From: a virus
Length of the DNA: 64,000 nt
IMG/VR virus record: IMGVR_UViG_3300035698_022074
Coordinates: 1-64,000 of that record
Direction: 5' to 3' (one strand)
The notes below the pieces were generated by a model, which saw nothing but the letters and a program-made list of their open reading frames with translations, searched no databases and was not told where the DNA came from. This document shows positions 25,020-25,980 of the stretch, in pieces. The first letter of the stretch is position 1. Every line of letters begins with the position of its first letter. The translations under genes were made by a program, and so were the position numbers.

Positions 25020-25258
25020 GTGAAGTTAAGTATCGTAAGTGTCTAATGATTTCAAGTGCAAGCGAAGCACTTGTCAATAAGGTAGCCTGGATTCCAGAGG
25101 AGATCGATAAAATTGAAGTCGTTCCCGGAATTATGATTAACCTTGGGACGCTAGAAGATGGAGTAAGCGATACAATTTGGGACATTATCACAGTTGGTGG
25201 CGAAAGAAAGTCTGCAGATAGTGTCCCAGGGAATTTGATGATTTGGAAGTATGTATGA
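25016..25258 (+). CDS. hypothetical protein (80 aa)
   Basis: ATGA overlap with the upstream gene. Confidence 0.45.
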   Translation: MSEVKYRKCLMISSASEALVNKVAWIPEEIDKIEVVPGIMINLGTLEDGVSDTIWDIITVGGERKSADSVPGNLMIWKYV

Positions 25259-25890
25259 TCAACATTCTTGGTAAAATTCCTCACAAGGTAATTATTGCAT
25301 GCTCTGGAGGAGTTGACTCTATGGCGGTAGTTGACTTCTTGCAAGCTGGTGGCAGAGAGGTTATTCTTGCATACTTTGATCATGGTACAGAGCATGGCAG
25401 TAAGGCAAGGGATTTTGTCAAGAAGTACGCTGATCGGTTTAGTCTGCCTTTACATGTAGGCTTCTTCAAGTGTGAACTAGAGCCTGGCAAGTCAACAGAG
25501 GCAGAGTGGCGTGATGCAAGATACGTTTTTTTTGAAAGTGTAATTGAAATCTATGACGATGTTCCCCTAATTACATGTCATCACCTGGACGATCAAATTG
25601 AAACCTGGATCTTTTCCGCTATGCACGGAAAACCAAAAACAATCCCGGCCAAAAGAGGCAGACATATTATCCGCCCGTTCTTACTCACCAAGAAAAAGGA
25701 TTTTTCCGATTGGGCCAGGCGTAAGAACGTCCCGTTTGTAACTGATCCTAGCAACTGTGACACAAAATATATGAGAAATCATATTCGACACAACATCGTT
25801 CCACAAGCTATGATTGTCAATCCTGGACTTCACAAGACCTTGTACAAGAAGACAAAAGAAGCATTTTTGAAACAAGAAGTCAAAGCTTAA
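25255..25890 (+). CDS. tilS: tRNA(Ile)-lysidine synthetase, TilS-like PP-loop ATPase (N-terminal catalytic domain)
   Basis: PP-loop IIACSGGVDSMAV. CHHLDDQIETWIF matches TilS AQHLDDQCETFLL. IIRPFLL…WARRKNVPFVTDPSNCDTKYMRNHIR matches TilS LIRPLL…[26 protein letters not shown]. ATGA overlap with the upstream gene. Confidence 0.7.
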   Translation: MINILGKIPHKVIIACSGGVDSMAVVDFLQAGGREVILAYFDHGTEHGSKARDFVKKYADRFSLPLHVGFFKCELEPGKSTEAEWRDARYVFFESVIEIYDDVPLITCHHLDDQIETWIFSAMHGKPKTIPAKRGRHIIRPFLLTKKKDFSDWARRKNVPFVTDPSNCDTKYMRNHIRHNIVPQAMIVNPGLHKTLYKKTKEAFLKQEVKA

Positions 25891-25903
25891 TATAGTTAGA
25901 AGA

Positions 25904-25980
25904 GGATCCCTAGCTTAATAGGTAAAAGCCCCCGTCTCATAAACGGACAGATGCGAGTTCAACCCTCGCGGGATCTACCA
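25904..25980 (+). tRNA. tRNA with CAT anticodon (third CAU tRNA; Met/fMet/Ile2)
   Basis: Acceptor ggatccc/gggatct, anticodon stem ccgt/acgg with loop ctcataa, T arm gcgag-ttcaacc-ctcgc, aCCA. Confidence 0.6.

What the first reader, a model, noticed from the sequence alone, without database searches (positions are those of the whole stretch)
25255..25980. Phage TilS (lysidine synthetase) adjacent to CAU-anticodon tRNAs
The TilS-like PP-loop enzyme carries SGGVDS and HLDDQxET. It sits about 15 nt upstream of a CAU tRNA at 25904. Two more CAU tRNAs lie at 10393 and 11498. This implies the phage makes its own tRNA-Ile2(LAU) to decode AUA, fitting its AT-rich coding.
Basis: partly seen in the sequence, partly recalled or inferred. 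Interest (0 to 1): 0.6.

Follow-up and report, generated by a model that had tools for sequence, protein, structure and literature searches.

The report
Phage mini-TilS with its own tRNA-Ile2
A large phage carries a stripped-down version of the bacterial enzyme that rewrites a CAU-anticodon tRNA so that it reads the isoleucine codon AUA. The tRNA it most likely acts on lies right beside it, a two-gene kit found in many phages, though phage TilS genes as such are already known.

Summary
ORF 25255-25890 (211 aa) carries SGGVDS and HLDDQIET. It scores above the curated cutoff of the TilS N-terminal-domain model (TIGR02432, 129.6 vs 93.6 bits). Its best solved-structure matches are TilS (TM 0.83-0.85); QueC is far (0.44). 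A solid tRNA(CAU) starts 13 nt after its stop codon.

- **Architecture.** The protein is the catalytic domain only. It lacks the CTD1 and CTD2 tRNA-binding domains that the TilS literature ascribes to characterised TilS.
- **Distribution.** This roughly 200-aa form is a large, essentially virus-only clade.
- **Linkage.** In related phages the tRNA nearest to TilS is CAU in 21 of 27 cases (background 9.6%).
- **tRNA class.** All 25 distinct linked tRNAs have the purine-3:pyrimidine-70 pair that excludes Met and fMet. The window tRNA has A3-U70.
- **Codon signature.** Phage TilS genes specifically avoid AUA (ratio 0.42 versus flanking genes, the most depleted of all codons). The window uses AUA at 15.5 per 1000 codons.

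Phage TilS was already reported (MIJ3/PA5oct, pelagimyophages), so this is a new member of a known kind. The missing C-terminal domains and the conserved cassette were not described in the papers I found. No activity has been shown.

The parts
25255..25890 (+). Short (211 aa) TilS-like PP-loop enzyme: the catalytic N-terminal domain only, with no CTD1 or CTD2
   Evidence: PF01171 matches at 2.4e-36. TIGR02432 scores 129.6 bits over all 189 profile positions, above the 93.6 cutoff; the full-length model NF007942 scores 66 against 606. The AlphaFold2 model has pLDDT 95.7 and its best fold matches are TilS. All residues invariant in 13 cellular TilS N-terminal domains are kept. It has 0 AUA among 17 Ile codons.
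25904..25980 (+). tRNA(CAU), Ile2-type: the presumed TilS substrate, with an encoded CCA end
   Evidence: Found by ARAGORN and by Rfam at 57.1 bits. Pairs: G1.U72, G2-C71, A3-U70, U4-A69, C5-G68, U12-A23, C29-G41; loop CUCAUAA; discriminator A73. It is the top hit (73.4 bits) of a covariance model built only from TilS-linked tRNAs of other phages. Compensatory acceptor-stem changes separate it from its closest relatives.
10394..10465 (+). tRNA(CAU) with an initiator-type acceptor stem (C1xA72, G2-C71, C3-G70), two of the three G-C pairs at 29-31:39-41, and a shortened D-arm
   Evidence: Rfam scores it 30.6 bits. Sequence, features. It scores only 31.7 bits with the Ile2-type model.
11498..11569 (+). 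Weak tRNA(CAU), C3-G70 type, loop UUCAUAC. Possibly an elongator Met or a degenerate copy; its class is not settled
   Evidence: Found by ARAGORN only and below the Rfam gathering score. It has two acceptor-stem mismatches and scores 27.2 bits with the Ile2-type model.
10230..10305 (+). tRNA-Ile(GAU), which reads AUU and AUC and so leaves AUA to another tRNA
24523..24597 (+). tRNA-Arg(CCU), in a conserved position between PrkA and TilS
   Evidence: Found; Rfam 68.6 bits. The closest relatives have tRNA-Arg(UCU or CCU) at the same place.
24765..25258 (+). Two small ORFs (84 and 80 aa) joined to each other and to TilS by ATGA start/stop overlaps. They have no known family and are not conserved in related loci
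   Evidence: ORFs, overlaps visible in the sequence. No Pfam or PHROG family. No tblastn hit in 85 related loci.
22480..24417 (+). PrkA-like kinase/AAA protein, the upstream synteny anchor
   Evidence: PF08298 6e-137 and PF06798 7e-76. The closest relatives have the same order, PrkA - tRNA-Arg - TilS - tRNA(CAU).
26022..27410 (+). Chaperonin (GroEL)-like protein, the downstream synteny anchor
   Evidence: PHROG 5725 at 1.2e-12. A homologue follows TilS in L027; L169 has a 468-aa ORF at the same position whose homology was not tested.

Best explanation
The region is a self-contained AUA-decoding cassette of a large, tRNA-rich phage.

**Proposed mechanism.**
1. The tRNA at 25904 is transcribed with a CAU anticodon.
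2. The 211-aa enzyme encoded 13 nt upstream adenylates C34 with ATP, using its PP-loop, and replaces the activated group with lysine. This gives lysidine (LAU).
3. That change switches the tRNA from a Met-accepting AUG reader to an Ile-accepting AUA reader.
4. The phage therefore supplies both the minor tRNA-Ile2 and the enzyme needed to mature it, and its AUA-rich genes do not depend on the host's small tRNA-Ile2/TilS capacity.

**Inferred recognition mode.** The enzyme is the catalytic domain alone. Its tRNA recognition must therefore rest on the anticodon arm, possibly helped by dimerisation and by the basic C-terminal helix (residues 192-210). It cannot use the acceptor-stem and elbow contacts made by CTD1 and CTD2.

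**Shown:** family and fold membership, loss of the C-terminal domains, conserved linkage to an Ile2-type tRNA(CAU), high AUA use, and AUA avoidance in the TilS gene.

**Inferred:** lysidine formation, substrate specificity, and co-transcription of the gene and the tRNA.
For: **Enzyme identity.**
- TIGR02432 scores above its cutoff.
- The best solved-structure matches are the three TilS structures, by sequence and by fold, TM 0.79-0.85.
- The residues invariant across the combined alignment of 10 short phage and 13 cellular TilS are A15, S17, G18, G19, D21, S22, R89, Y90, H109, D113, E116, R140, P141, D164, N167, R174 and R178.

**Substrate identity.**
- The adjacent tRNA has A3-U70, which excludes Met and fMet by the rule of Silva 2006.
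- It also has U12-A23, C29-G41, A37, A38 and A73.
- It is the top hit, 73.4 bits, of a model built from TilS-linked tRNAs of other phages. The other two CAU tRNAs score 31.7 and 27.2 bits.
- A typical linked tRNA (L008) matches best the E. coli genes that PGAP annotates as tRNA-Ile; the one checked carries a CAT anticodon.

**Linkage.**
- Among 60 dereplicated phage loci, 27 have a tRNA within 150 nt of TilS. The nearest one is CAU in 21 of them, against 9.6% CAU among distant tRNAs (P about 7.5e-17).
- In 19 of 23 loci with a single tRNA, that tRNA is CAU.
- The CAU tRNA is always on the TilS strand.
- All 25 distinct adjacent CAU tRNAs have G3-C70 or A3-U70.
- The closest relatives keep the order PrkA - tRNA-Arg - TilS - tRNA(CAU).

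**Codon signature.**
- The window uses AUA at 15.5 per 1000 codons. Flanks of related loci use it at 22.6 per 1000.
- TilS genes have AUA at 14% of Ile codons against 34% in flanks, lower in 61 of 68 loci (Wilcoxon 1.8e-11).
- AUA is the single most depleted codon in TilS genes (ratio 0.42; the next codon is 0.83), while GC3 is equal.
- TilS has no AUA at all in 25 of 64 loci, against 9% of flanking genes.
Against: - No biochemical evidence exists here or, to my knowledge, for any phage TilS.
- According to PMC11947777, TilS enzymes have at least CTD1, and a CTD2 deletion sharply reduces activity. A domain-less enzyme may therefore be weak or need a partner. I found no conserved partner gene.
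- The window tRNA has U4-A69, not the C4-G69 used by E. coli TilS and IleRS.
- Adjacency is not universal. The nearest huge-phage and PA5oct/MIJ3 relatives have no tRNA within 3 kb of TilS. Four loci have tRNA-Leu(UAA) next to TilS instead.
- Another odd tRNA at 15020-15097, with a 10-nt loop containing UAU, could conceivably read AUA.
- The host and its AUA usage are unknown.
- The lysine-binding residues were not checked individually, because the structural paper is not held.
Confidence: 0.78

Rival explanations
1. The enzyme is TilS-derived but installs a different C34 (or other cytidine) modification on the linked CAU tRNA. It might use another amine nucleophile, or it might have relaxed specificity and also act on other CAU tRNAs such as host tRNA-Met.
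For: - It lacks both specificity domains.
- A CTD2-deleted B. cenocepacia TilS accepts a tRNA variant that the wild-type enzyme rejects (PMC11947777).
- TilS can use 5-aminovaleramide in vitro (PMC13602947).
- MIJ3 has two CAU tRNAs with identical bodies that differ only in the acceptor stem. A domain-less enzyme could probably not tell them apart.
Against: - All residues conserved in cellular TilS catalytic domains are kept.
- The score is above the equivalog-domain cutoff.
- The AUA-specific codon signature fits an AUA-decoding product.
- The CTD2-deleted enzyme still rejected tRNA-Met.
Confidence: 0.1
2. The phage TilS mainly maintains or boosts lysidinylation of the host's own tRNA-Ile2 during infection. 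This is the 'keep the host viable' idea proposed for MIJ3. On this view the neighbouring tRNA is only one of many phage tRNAs that happens to lie nearby.
For: - The MIJ3 authors speculate about host maintenance (PMC6892783).
- In PA5oct/MIJ3 and the two huge phages no tRNA lies within 3 kb of TilS.
Against: - The adjacency is far above chance, and the CAU tRNA is often the only tRNA in 16 kb.
- The gene order flips between relatives (tRNA upstream in L027, downstream here) while the linkage persists.
- MIJ3 does carry an Ile2-type CAU tRNA about 9 kb upstream of TilS.
Confidence: 0.06
3. The gene is a truncated, decaying remnant of a captured bacterial tilS and has no activity.
For: It is about half the length of type I TilS.
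Against: - At least 156 clusters at 50% identity have the same roughly 200-aa length.
- At least 573 viral contigs carry it.
- Catalytic residues are invariant.
- The predicted fold is confident, pLDDT 95.7.
- The family shares a conserved C-terminal NPG...KK motif.
Confidence: 0.02
4. It belongs to another PP-loop family: QueC, the 2-thiolation enzymes TtcA/TtuA/Ncs6, or PAPS reductase.
For: - Weak PHROG hits to QueC-like (5e-6) and PAPS-reductase (1.5e-5) families cover only the PP-loop, residues 8-68.
- TtuA is the second-best fold match, TM 0.72-0.75.
Against: - TtcA scores 27 bits against a cutoff of 272.
- TtuA is at 2.6e-6 by sequence against 2e-35 for TilS.
- QueC gives TM 0.44.
- The sequence has no CxxC or other Fe-S or zinc cysteine motif.
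Confidence: 0.01

Closest known systems
Phage-encoded TilS of Pseudomonas jumbo phages MIJ3 (gp263) and PA5oct (EST35_0433), and the tRNA(Ile)-lysidine synthetase noted in group A pelagimyophages
   Same: - The MIJ3/PA5oct proteins have the same roughly 200-aa architecture and are 42% identical over 91% of the query. The size and identity of the pelagimyophage protein were not checked.
- All are phage-borne (PMC6892783; PMC7029224).
- MIJ3 also carries an Ile2-type tRNA(CAU).
   Different: - In MIJ3 and PA5oct the CAU tRNAs lie 7-10 kb from TilS rather than next to it.
- Those papers left the function open. In the passages I read they did not mention the missing C-terminal domains or the link to a phage tRNA.
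Type II bacterial TilS (Aquifex aeolicus; PDB 1WY5, 2E21, 2E89)
   Same: It is the best sequence match (2e-35) and the best fold match (TM 0.83-0.85) over the whole catalytic domain. It has the same PP-loop and the same HHLxDxxET, RP, DxxN and RNxxR motifs.
   Different: Type II TilS keeps CTD1, about 100 further residues that reach the anticodon stem and elbow. The phage protein ends about 20 residues after the NPG motif.
Type I bacterial TilS (E. coli MesJ 1NI5; G. kaustophilus 3A2K in complex with tRNA)
   Same: The catalytic domain and the chemistry are the same.
   Different: - Type I has CTD1 and CTD2.
- It reads acceptor-stem pairs (4:69 and 5:68 in E. coli, 3:70 in B. cenocepacia).
- The full-length model NF007942 scores only 66 of the 606 bits required.
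Phage or prophage tRNA-Ile2(CAU) genes that rely on host TilS (for example Latilactobacillus curvatus prophages, PMC10688831). From my own memory, not checked here: the AUA-reading tRNA-Ile of phage T4
   Same: The phage supplies an extra AUA reader to match its own higher AUA usage.
   Different: Those phages carry no TilS and depend on the host enzyme. Here the modification enzyme travels with the tRNA.
Plastid tilS-trnI(CAU) module of green algae (PMC13494906)
   Same: A small genome co-retains the enzyme and its single tRNA substrate as a functional unit tied to AUA usage. I saw only the title and abstract.
   Different: It is an organellar, full-length TilS of cyanobacterial descent. It is not a mobile viral cassette.

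Membership tests
TilS, tRNA(Ile)-lysidine synthetase (catalytic N-terminal domain, TIGR02432 / PF01171) | PP-loop ATP-pyrophosphatase motif SGGxDS | tested here: met
   SGGVDS is at residues 17-22 and is invariant in the family.
TilS, tRNA(Ile)-lysidine synthetase (catalytic N-terminal domain, TIGR02432 / PF01171) | Score above the curated cutoff of the equivalog-domain model, with full profile coverage | tested here: met
   129.6 bits against 93.6, covering profile positions 1-189 of 189.
TilS, tRNA(Ile)-lysidine synthetase (catalytic N-terminal domain, TIGR02432 / PF01171) | Residues invariant in cellular TilS catalytic domains (R89, Y90, H109, D113, E116, R140-P141, D164, N167, R174, R178; window numbering) | tested here: met
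   All are present in an alignment with 13 cellular TilS from diverse phyla.
TilS, tRNA(Ile)-lysidine synthetase (catalytic N-terminal domain, TIGR02432 / PF01171) | Fold of the TilS N-terminal domain | tested here: met
   The AlphaFold2 model has pLDDT 95.7. Foldseek gives TM 0.83-0.85 to A. aeolicus TilS and 0.79 to E. coli MesJ.
TilS, full-length enzyme (type I or type II as defined in PMC11947777 and PMC12514573) | CTD1, the appended domain that contacts the anticodon stem and elbow (present in both types) | tested here: not met
   The protein ends at residue 211. Alignments to 1WY5 and 3A2K stop at chain residues 228 and 221, and cellular homologues continue for 100-290 more residues.
TilS, full-length enzyme (type I or type II as defined in PMC11947777 and PMC12514573) | CTD2, the acceptor-stem reader (type I only) | tested here: not met
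   Absent. NF007942 scores 66 bits against a cutoff of 606.
TilS, full-length enzyme (type I or type II as defined in PMC11947777 and PMC12514573) | ATP- and lysine-dependent conversion of C34 of tRNA-Ile2 to lysidine | not testable with these tools
   This needs an enzyme assay or mass spectrometry.
TilS, full-length enzyme (type I or type II as defined in PMC11947777 and PMC12514573) | Lysine-binding residues or loop | not tested
   The structural papers that define them are not held. Only overall conservation was checked.
Virus-specific short TilS clade (MIJ3/PA5oct type) | Roughly 200-aa catalytic-domain-only protein with a conserved C-terminal NPG(I/L)xK..KK helix, homologous over its full length | tested here: met
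   - 42-62% identity to family members over at least 91% of the length.
- 156 clusters at E <= 1e-30, nearly all 180-235 aa.
Virus-specific short TilS clade (MIJ3/PA5oct type) | Viral genomic context and absence from cellular genomes | tested here: met
   - The window has 39 tRNAs, a tmRNA, a baseplate protein and a phage-type helicase.
- At least 573 IMG/VR contigs carry the family.
- Among 185,579 species genomes only one short-form hit was found, on a 7-kb contig of a Pelagibacteraceae single-cell genome. All other hits are at most 37% identical, and those checked are 294-501 aa.
Bacterial-type tRNA-Ile2(CAU) | CAU anticodon in a canonical CUCAUAA loop, with A37, A38 and discriminator A73 | tested here: met
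Bacterial-type tRNA-Ile2(CAU) | G3 or A3 paired with C70 or U70, a negative discriminator for tRNA-Met and tRNA-fMet (Silva 2006) | tested here: met
   The window tRNA has A3-U70; the rule is quoted. All 25 distinct TilS-adjacent tRNAs of other phages share it.
Bacterial-type tRNA-Ile2(CAU) | Absence of initiator marks (C1xA72, A11-U24, three G-C pairs at 29-31:39-41) | tested here: met
   It has G1.U72, C11-G24, and an anticodon stem of C-G, G-C, U-A at 29-31.
Bacterial-type tRNA-Ile2(CAU) | C4-G69 and C5-G68 (frequent in Ile2; TilS determinants in E. coli but not universal) | tested here: inconclusive
   C5-G68 is present, but 4:69 is U-A. These determinants are known to be lineage-specific.
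Bacterial-type tRNA-Ile2(CAU) | Lysidine at position 34 and charging by IleRS | not testable with these tools
   This needs tRNA mass spectrometry and aminoacylation assays.
QueC (7-cyano-7-deazaguanine synthase) | Full-length match to QueC models and the QueC fold with its zinc site | tested here: not met
   The only match is a PP-loop-local PHROG hit over residues 11-67 at 5e-6. TM to QueC is 0.44-0.45.
TtcA/TtuA/Ncs6 tRNA thiolases | Cysteine ligands for the Fe-S cluster and zinc fingers, and a score above the family cutoff | tested here: not met
   TtcA scores 27 bits against 272 and TtuA 17 against 450. The sequence has no CxxC motifs.

The most novel reading that the evidence does not exclude
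The roughly 200-aa phage proteins are a natural 'type III' TilS: a virus-specific, catalytic-domain-only lysidine synthetase. On this reading it recognises its substrate through the anticodon arm alone and has co-evolved with a tRNA-Ile2 that it carries beside it. The pair would form a portable and possibly orthogonal AUA-decoding cassette.

A more radical corollary is not excluded. An enzyme without specificity domains might also lysidinylate host elongator tRNA-Met(CAU). That would divert part of the host's AUG-reading pool to AUA and reprogramme translation in favour of the phage.
Probability: 0.4. Interest if true: 0.65.

Novelty: new member of a known kind. Interest (0 to 1): 0.5.

Why it matters
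**Enzymology.** TilS is essential in most bacteria and is being studied as a bacteria-specific target. The field currently holds that TilS always needs at least one appended domain to pick tRNA-Ile2 out from the near-identical tRNA-Met. It lists as an open question how enzymes that lack CTD2 discriminate (PMC11947777).

A large, natural, domain-less TilS clade makes that question directly testable, because:
- its cognate tRNA is encoded alongside it;
- culturable members exist (PA5oct, MIJ3);
- MIJ3 carries a twin pair of CAU tRNAs that differ only in the acceptor stem.

**Phage biology.** The finding gives a concrete reason why a tRNA-modification gene travels with a tRNA. An unmodified tRNA-Ile2 is useless for AUA and behaves as a Met tRNA. 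Adding the tRNA alone therefore helps only as far as host TilS capacity allows.

**Independent signal.** The specific avoidance of AUA in the TilS genes themselves is a neat genomic signature of that dependency.

**Applications.** A compact enzyme-tRNA pair could also be useful for codon reassignment work on AUA.

Tried and rejected
- **Nucleotide search.** Megablast of the 3.1-kb region against 50,697 phage records found nothing. Only protein-level relatives exist.
- **Trans-acting partner, small ORFs.** I tested whether the two small ORFs translationally coupled to TilS (24765-25258) could be a tRNA-binding partner replacing the C-terminal domains. They have no family and no homologue in 85 related loci. 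Rejected as a conserved partner.
- **Trans-acting partner, tRNA_bind protein.** A 98-aa PF01588 (tRNA_bind) protein lies 1.7 kb upstream of TilS in a 420-kb phage. It has no homologue in the window or the other loci. Rejected.
- **Promoter and terminator scan of 24300-26200.** Counts are at chance level. There is no + strand terminator between TilS and the tRNA. A promoter-like site lies at 25867-25896. The scan does not settle whether the two are co-transcribed.
- **Window tRNA against E. coli genomes.** No match, because the tRNA is too divergent. A typical linked tRNA (L008) did match E. coli genes annotated tRNA-Ile.
- **Covariance model R1.** It was built with a mis-registered structure line and discarded. 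R2 was used instead.
- **Structural paper.** The PNAS 2005 paper that defines the lysine-specific loop is not held. Individual lysine-binding residues were therefore not checked.
- **C3-G70 as a Met marker.** I first treated C3-G70 as marking Met. E. coli tRNA-Ile2 itself has C3-G70. Only G3 or A3 is diagnostic, so the class of the weak tRNA at 11498 is left open.
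Full report
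**1. What is there**

The window is a piece of a large phage.
- It carries 39 tRNA genes called by ARAGORN, plus a tmRNA.
- Rfam finds further tRNAs.
- It encodes a baseplate wedge protein, a phage-type helicase and PhoH.
- It is 40.6% G+C.
- The exact TilS protein occurs on metagenome contigs: JGI 3300012271 (69.5 kb) and Logan SRR6185438. The longest contig carrying it is 179.6 kb.

ORF 25255-25890 on the + strand encodes 211 aa, with SGGVDS at residues 17-22 and HLDDQIET at residues 110-117. The ATG at 25255 is the real start, because homologues all begin MI..LGKIP.

This ORF and the two small ORFs before it are linked by ATGA start/stop overlaps at 25016-25019 and 25255-25258.

Thirteen nucleotides after the TAA stop begins a tRNA with anticodon CAU, at 25904-25980 (ARAGORN; Rfam 57.1 bits). 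Two other CAU tRNAs exist at 10394-10465 and 11498-11569. Both are weak: the first scores 30.6 bits and the second is below the Rfam threshold.

**2. The protein is a TilS catalytic domain and nothing else**

Sequence evidence:
- Pfam PF01171 matches at 2.4e-36.
- NCBIfam TIGR02432 (lysidine_TilS_N, an equivalog domain model) scores 129.6 bits against a cutoff of 93.6 and covers the whole profile.
- The full-length TilS model NF007942 scores only 66 of the 606 bits required.
- TtcA, TtuA, MnmA and GuaA score far below their cutoffs.
- PHROG hits to QueC-like and PAPS-reductase families cover only the PP-loop.

Structure evidence:
- A family profile finds the three solved TilS structures first: A. 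aeolicus 2e-35, G. kaustophilus 3.4e-27, E. coli 9.3e-25. TtuA follows at 2.6e-6. The alignments end at the boundary of the N-terminal domain.
- The AlphaFold2 model is confident, with pLDDT 95.7.
- It superposes best on A. aeolicus TilS (TM 0.83-0.85) and E. coli MesJ (0.79). TtuA gives 0.72-0.75 and QueC 0.44.

Comparison with cellular TilS:
- I aligned the protein with 13 cellular TilS from diverse phyla. Every residue invariant in their catalytic domains is kept.
- The phage proteins stop about 20 residues after a conserved NPG motif. The cellular proteins continue for 100-290 residues, which are CTD1 with or without CTD2.

**3. The short form is a large clade found almost only in viruses**

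- A search of 1.84 billion representative proteins gives 156 clusters at E <= 1e-30. Nearly all are 180-235 aa. Cellular-length TilS appear only at lower scores.
- IMG/VR holds at least 573 contigs that encode it.
- In one genome for each of 185,579 bacterial and archaeal species, a single short-form locus was found. It is a 206-aa protein on a 7-kb contig of a Pelagibacteraceae single-cell genome, with a tRNA(CAU) 310 nt downstream.
- Every other hit in that scan is at most 37% identical, and those I checked are 294-501 aa.

Two 2025 papers on TilS describe only type I (CTD1 + CTD2) and type II (CTD1) enzymes. [quoted passage not shown]

**4. The neighbouring tRNA is the Ile2 type**

Silva et al. 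(PMC1635315) report three rules:
- G3 or A3 with C70 or U70 excludes tRNA-Met and tRNA-fMet.
- C4-G69 and C5-G68 are frequent in tRNA-Ile(CAU).
- C1xA72 and A11-U24 mark initiators.

The three CAU tRNAs of the window read as follows:
- **25904:** G1.U72, G2-C71, A3-U70, U4-A69, C5-G68, U12-A23, C29-G41, loop CUCAUAA, A73. The A3-U70 pair makes it Ile-type.
- **10394:** C1xA72, G2-C71, C3-G70. This is the initiator acceptor signature.
- **11498:** C3-G70 with two acceptor-stem mismatches. Its class stays open, because E. coli tRNA-Ile2 itself has C3-G70.

I built a covariance model from 18 TilS-linked tRNAs of other phages. It ranks 25904 first of all tRNAs in the window, at 73.4 bits, which is above its score with the general Rfam tRNA model. 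The other two CAU tRNAs score 31.7 and 27.2 bits.

A typical linked tRNA (L008) finds as its best E. coli matches the genes that PGAP annotates as tRNA-Ile. The one I fetched carries a CAT anticodon.

The window also has tRNA-Ile(GAU) for AUU and AUC. ARAGORN called no tRNA(UAU) at default settings.

**5. The pairing is a conserved cassette**

In 80 related viral loci with 8-kb flanks:
- 48 hold a tRNA(CAU), always on the TilS strand.
- In 32 loci it lies within about 100 nt of TilS, downstream or upstream.

After dereplication at 90% protein identity there are 60 clusters:
- 27 have a tRNA within 150 nt of TilS, and the nearest one is CAU in 21.
- The background is 9.6% CAU among tRNAs more than 500 nt away, giving a binomial P of 7.5e-17.
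- In 19 of 23 loci that hold a single tRNA, that tRNA is CAU.

All 25 distinct adjacent CAU tRNAs have G3-C70 or A3-U70, and none has C3-G70. By comparison, 50 of 159 non-CAU tRNAs have C3-G70.

The closest relatives of the window protein (58-60% identity, from independent metagenomes) keep the order PrkA - tRNA-Arg - TilS - tRNA(CAU). One of them also continues with a 468-aa ORF at the chaperonin position and an RNaseH-like gene. Compensatory changes in the tRNA acceptor stem separate them from the window tRNA.

In L027 the tRNA lies upstream of TilS rather than downstream, yet it is still adjacent.

Adjacency is not universal.
- The two huge uncultured phages that are the best GenBank hits, and PA5oct, have no tRNA within 3 kb of TilS.
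- MIJ3, a close relative of PA5oct, carries three CAU tRNAs 7-10 kb upstream. One is G3-C70 (Ile-type). One is C3-G70 with an otherwise identical body. One is initiator-type.

**6. Codon evidence**

In the window:
- In 56 greedy ORFs, AUA occurs at 15.5 per 1000 codons and makes up 22% of Ile codons. By the scale of PMC12514573 that is 'high' (above 10 per 1000).
- Usage is heterogeneous:

| Gene | AUA / Ile codons |
|---|---|
| TilS | 0 / 17 |
| PrkA | 0 / 46 |
| Helicase | 1 / 41 |
| SpoVR | 3 / 45 |
| Vault-like protein | 2 / 46 |
| Many genes in the 34-61 kb block (glycosyltransferases, baseplate, fibre-like) | 30-47% of Ile codons |

Across related phage loci:
- In 68 distinct loci, TilS genes use AUA for 14% of Ile codons against 34% in flanking genes. 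TilS is lower in 61 of the 68 (Wilcoxon 1.8e-11).
- Of all synonymous codons, AUA is the most depleted in TilS relative to the flanks (ratio 0.42). The next codon is at 0.83 and GC3 is identical (0.34), so this is not a general bias.
- TilS has no AUA at all in 25 of 64 loci, against 9% of flanking genes. Its median percentile among flanking genes is 3%.

A gene that avoids precisely the codon its product is proposed to enable is independent support for the function. It also suggests that AUA decoding is limiting early in infection. That last step is inference.

**7. Mechanism proposed**

What is shown:
- a TilS catalytic domain with an intact active-site signature;
- an Ile2-type tRNA(CAU) immediately downstream;
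- conserved linkage between the two;
- AUA-rich phage genes.

What established TilS biology adds (Soma 2003 and Ikeuchi 2005, as summarised):
- C34 is adenylated and then substituted by lysine.
- The resulting lysidine switches the tRNA from MetRS and AUG to IleRS and AUA.
- The unmodified tRNA-Ile2 behaves as a Met tRNA.

What I infer:
- The phage brings both parts because extra tRNA-Ile2 is useless without enough TilS.
- With no C-terminal domains, recognition must rest on the anticodon arm.

On the second point, linked tRNAs are enriched for a non-Watson-Crick 27:43 pair: 14 of 25, against 27 of 159 non-CAU tRNAs. They almost always have C28-G42. The window tRNA has C27xA43 and C28-G42. This is a lead, not a demonstration.

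No conserved partner protein was found.

**8. Comparison with what is known, and novelty**

Phage TilS has been reported before:
- MIJ3/PA5oct in 2019, where the function was left open and maintenance of the host was speculated;
- group A pelagimyophages in 2020;
- a 349-aa version in Ralstonia phage RsoM2USA in 2021.

Prophage tRNA-Ile2 genes that rely on host TilS are also described.

The window gene is therefore a new member of a known kind.

Three points were not found in the papers that my searches returned and that I read:
- the complete loss of the C-terminal domains as a virus-specific trait;
- the conserved TilS-tRNA-Ile2 cassette;
- the AUA avoidance of the TilS genes.

I cannot exclude that these points are published elsewhere. 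No activity has been demonstrated for any of these proteins.

**9. Verdict**

- It is ordinary as a 'phage TilS'. It is of moderate interest as a natural minimal TilS with a linked substrate. That combination bears directly on an open question about how TilS discriminates between its substrates.

Noticed in passing
window 3979-6666 (+): An 895-aa ORF inside the tRNA island matches the Pfam families MVP_shoulder (1.4e-26) and Vault_3 (2e-10). It is therefore a major-vault-protein-like protein in a phage. It has no PHROG hit and is AUA-poor (2 of 46 Ile codons).
   Followed up: no
window 14939-15015 (+): A tRNA with a CUA anticodon, i.e. an amber suppressor (ARAGORN labels it 'Pyl'; Rfam 56.7 bits). 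TAG still ends 10 of 56 greedy ORFs, so there is no obvious wholesale recoding of the window.
   Followed up: partly
window 15020-15097 (+): A tRNA (Rfam 43.6 bits) with a 10-nt anticodon loop, GUAUUUAUAU. ARAGORN at relaxed settings calls it tRNA-Ile(UAU) with a 3-nt 'intron'. It could be a second AUA reader or an unusual decoder. It lies in a trio with the CUA suppressor and a tRNA(UUU)-like gene with an aberrant T-loop at 14858-14930.
   Followed up: partly
window 30901-31268 (+): A phage-encoded tmRNA (Rfam 119.8 bits) with tag peptide ANNNSHFQTALAA.
   Followed up: no
window 21021-24417 (+): SpoVR-like and PrkA-like genes, a host-type stress or sporulation kinase module, lie directly upstream. 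PrkA-TilS synteny is conserved in the closest relatives. PrkA has 0 AUA in 46 Ile codons here, but 15 of 54 in L027.
   Followed up: partly
window 24603-24692 (+): A 90-nt tRNA-like element (Rfam 31 bits, just above the gathering score) lies right after tRNA-Arg(CCU). ARAGORN at relaxed settings gives it an undetermined identity with a 4-base anticodon.
   Followed up: no
window 34000-61000 versus 3979-30588: Two codon classes are visible. AUA makes up 30-47% of Ile codons in many genes of the glycosyltransferase, baseplate and fibre-like block. It makes up 0-7% in TilS, PrkA, SpoVR, the helicase and the vault-like gene. This may be an early/late split or a difference in origin.
   Followed up: partly
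L006 8705-8790; also L053, L066 and L075, 72-78 nt after TilS: In four related viral loci the tRNA directly after the short TilS is tRNA-Leu(UAA), not tRNA(CAU).
   Followed up: no
L086 (MIJ3, LR588166.1) 19831-19907 and 20312-20388: Two annotated 'tRNA-Met(cat)' genes have identical D, anticodon and T arms and differ only in the acceptor stem (CCCTCGG with C3-G70 versus GGGACTT with G3-C70). Each is followed by a tRNA-Leu(UAA). This pair is a natural test of acceptor-stem-independent recognition by the short TilS.
   Followed up: partly
L170 486-782 (420-kb phage contig, ENA ERZ27251152): A 98-aa stand-alone tRNA_bind (PF01588) protein lies 1.7 kb upstream of the short TilS in a 420-kb phage. 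It is not found in the window or in the other loci.
   Followed up: yes
window 31947-33374 (+): A PhoH-like ATPase fused to an N-terminal PIN domain (PF13638 7e-26 and PF02562 9.5e-55).
   Followed up: no
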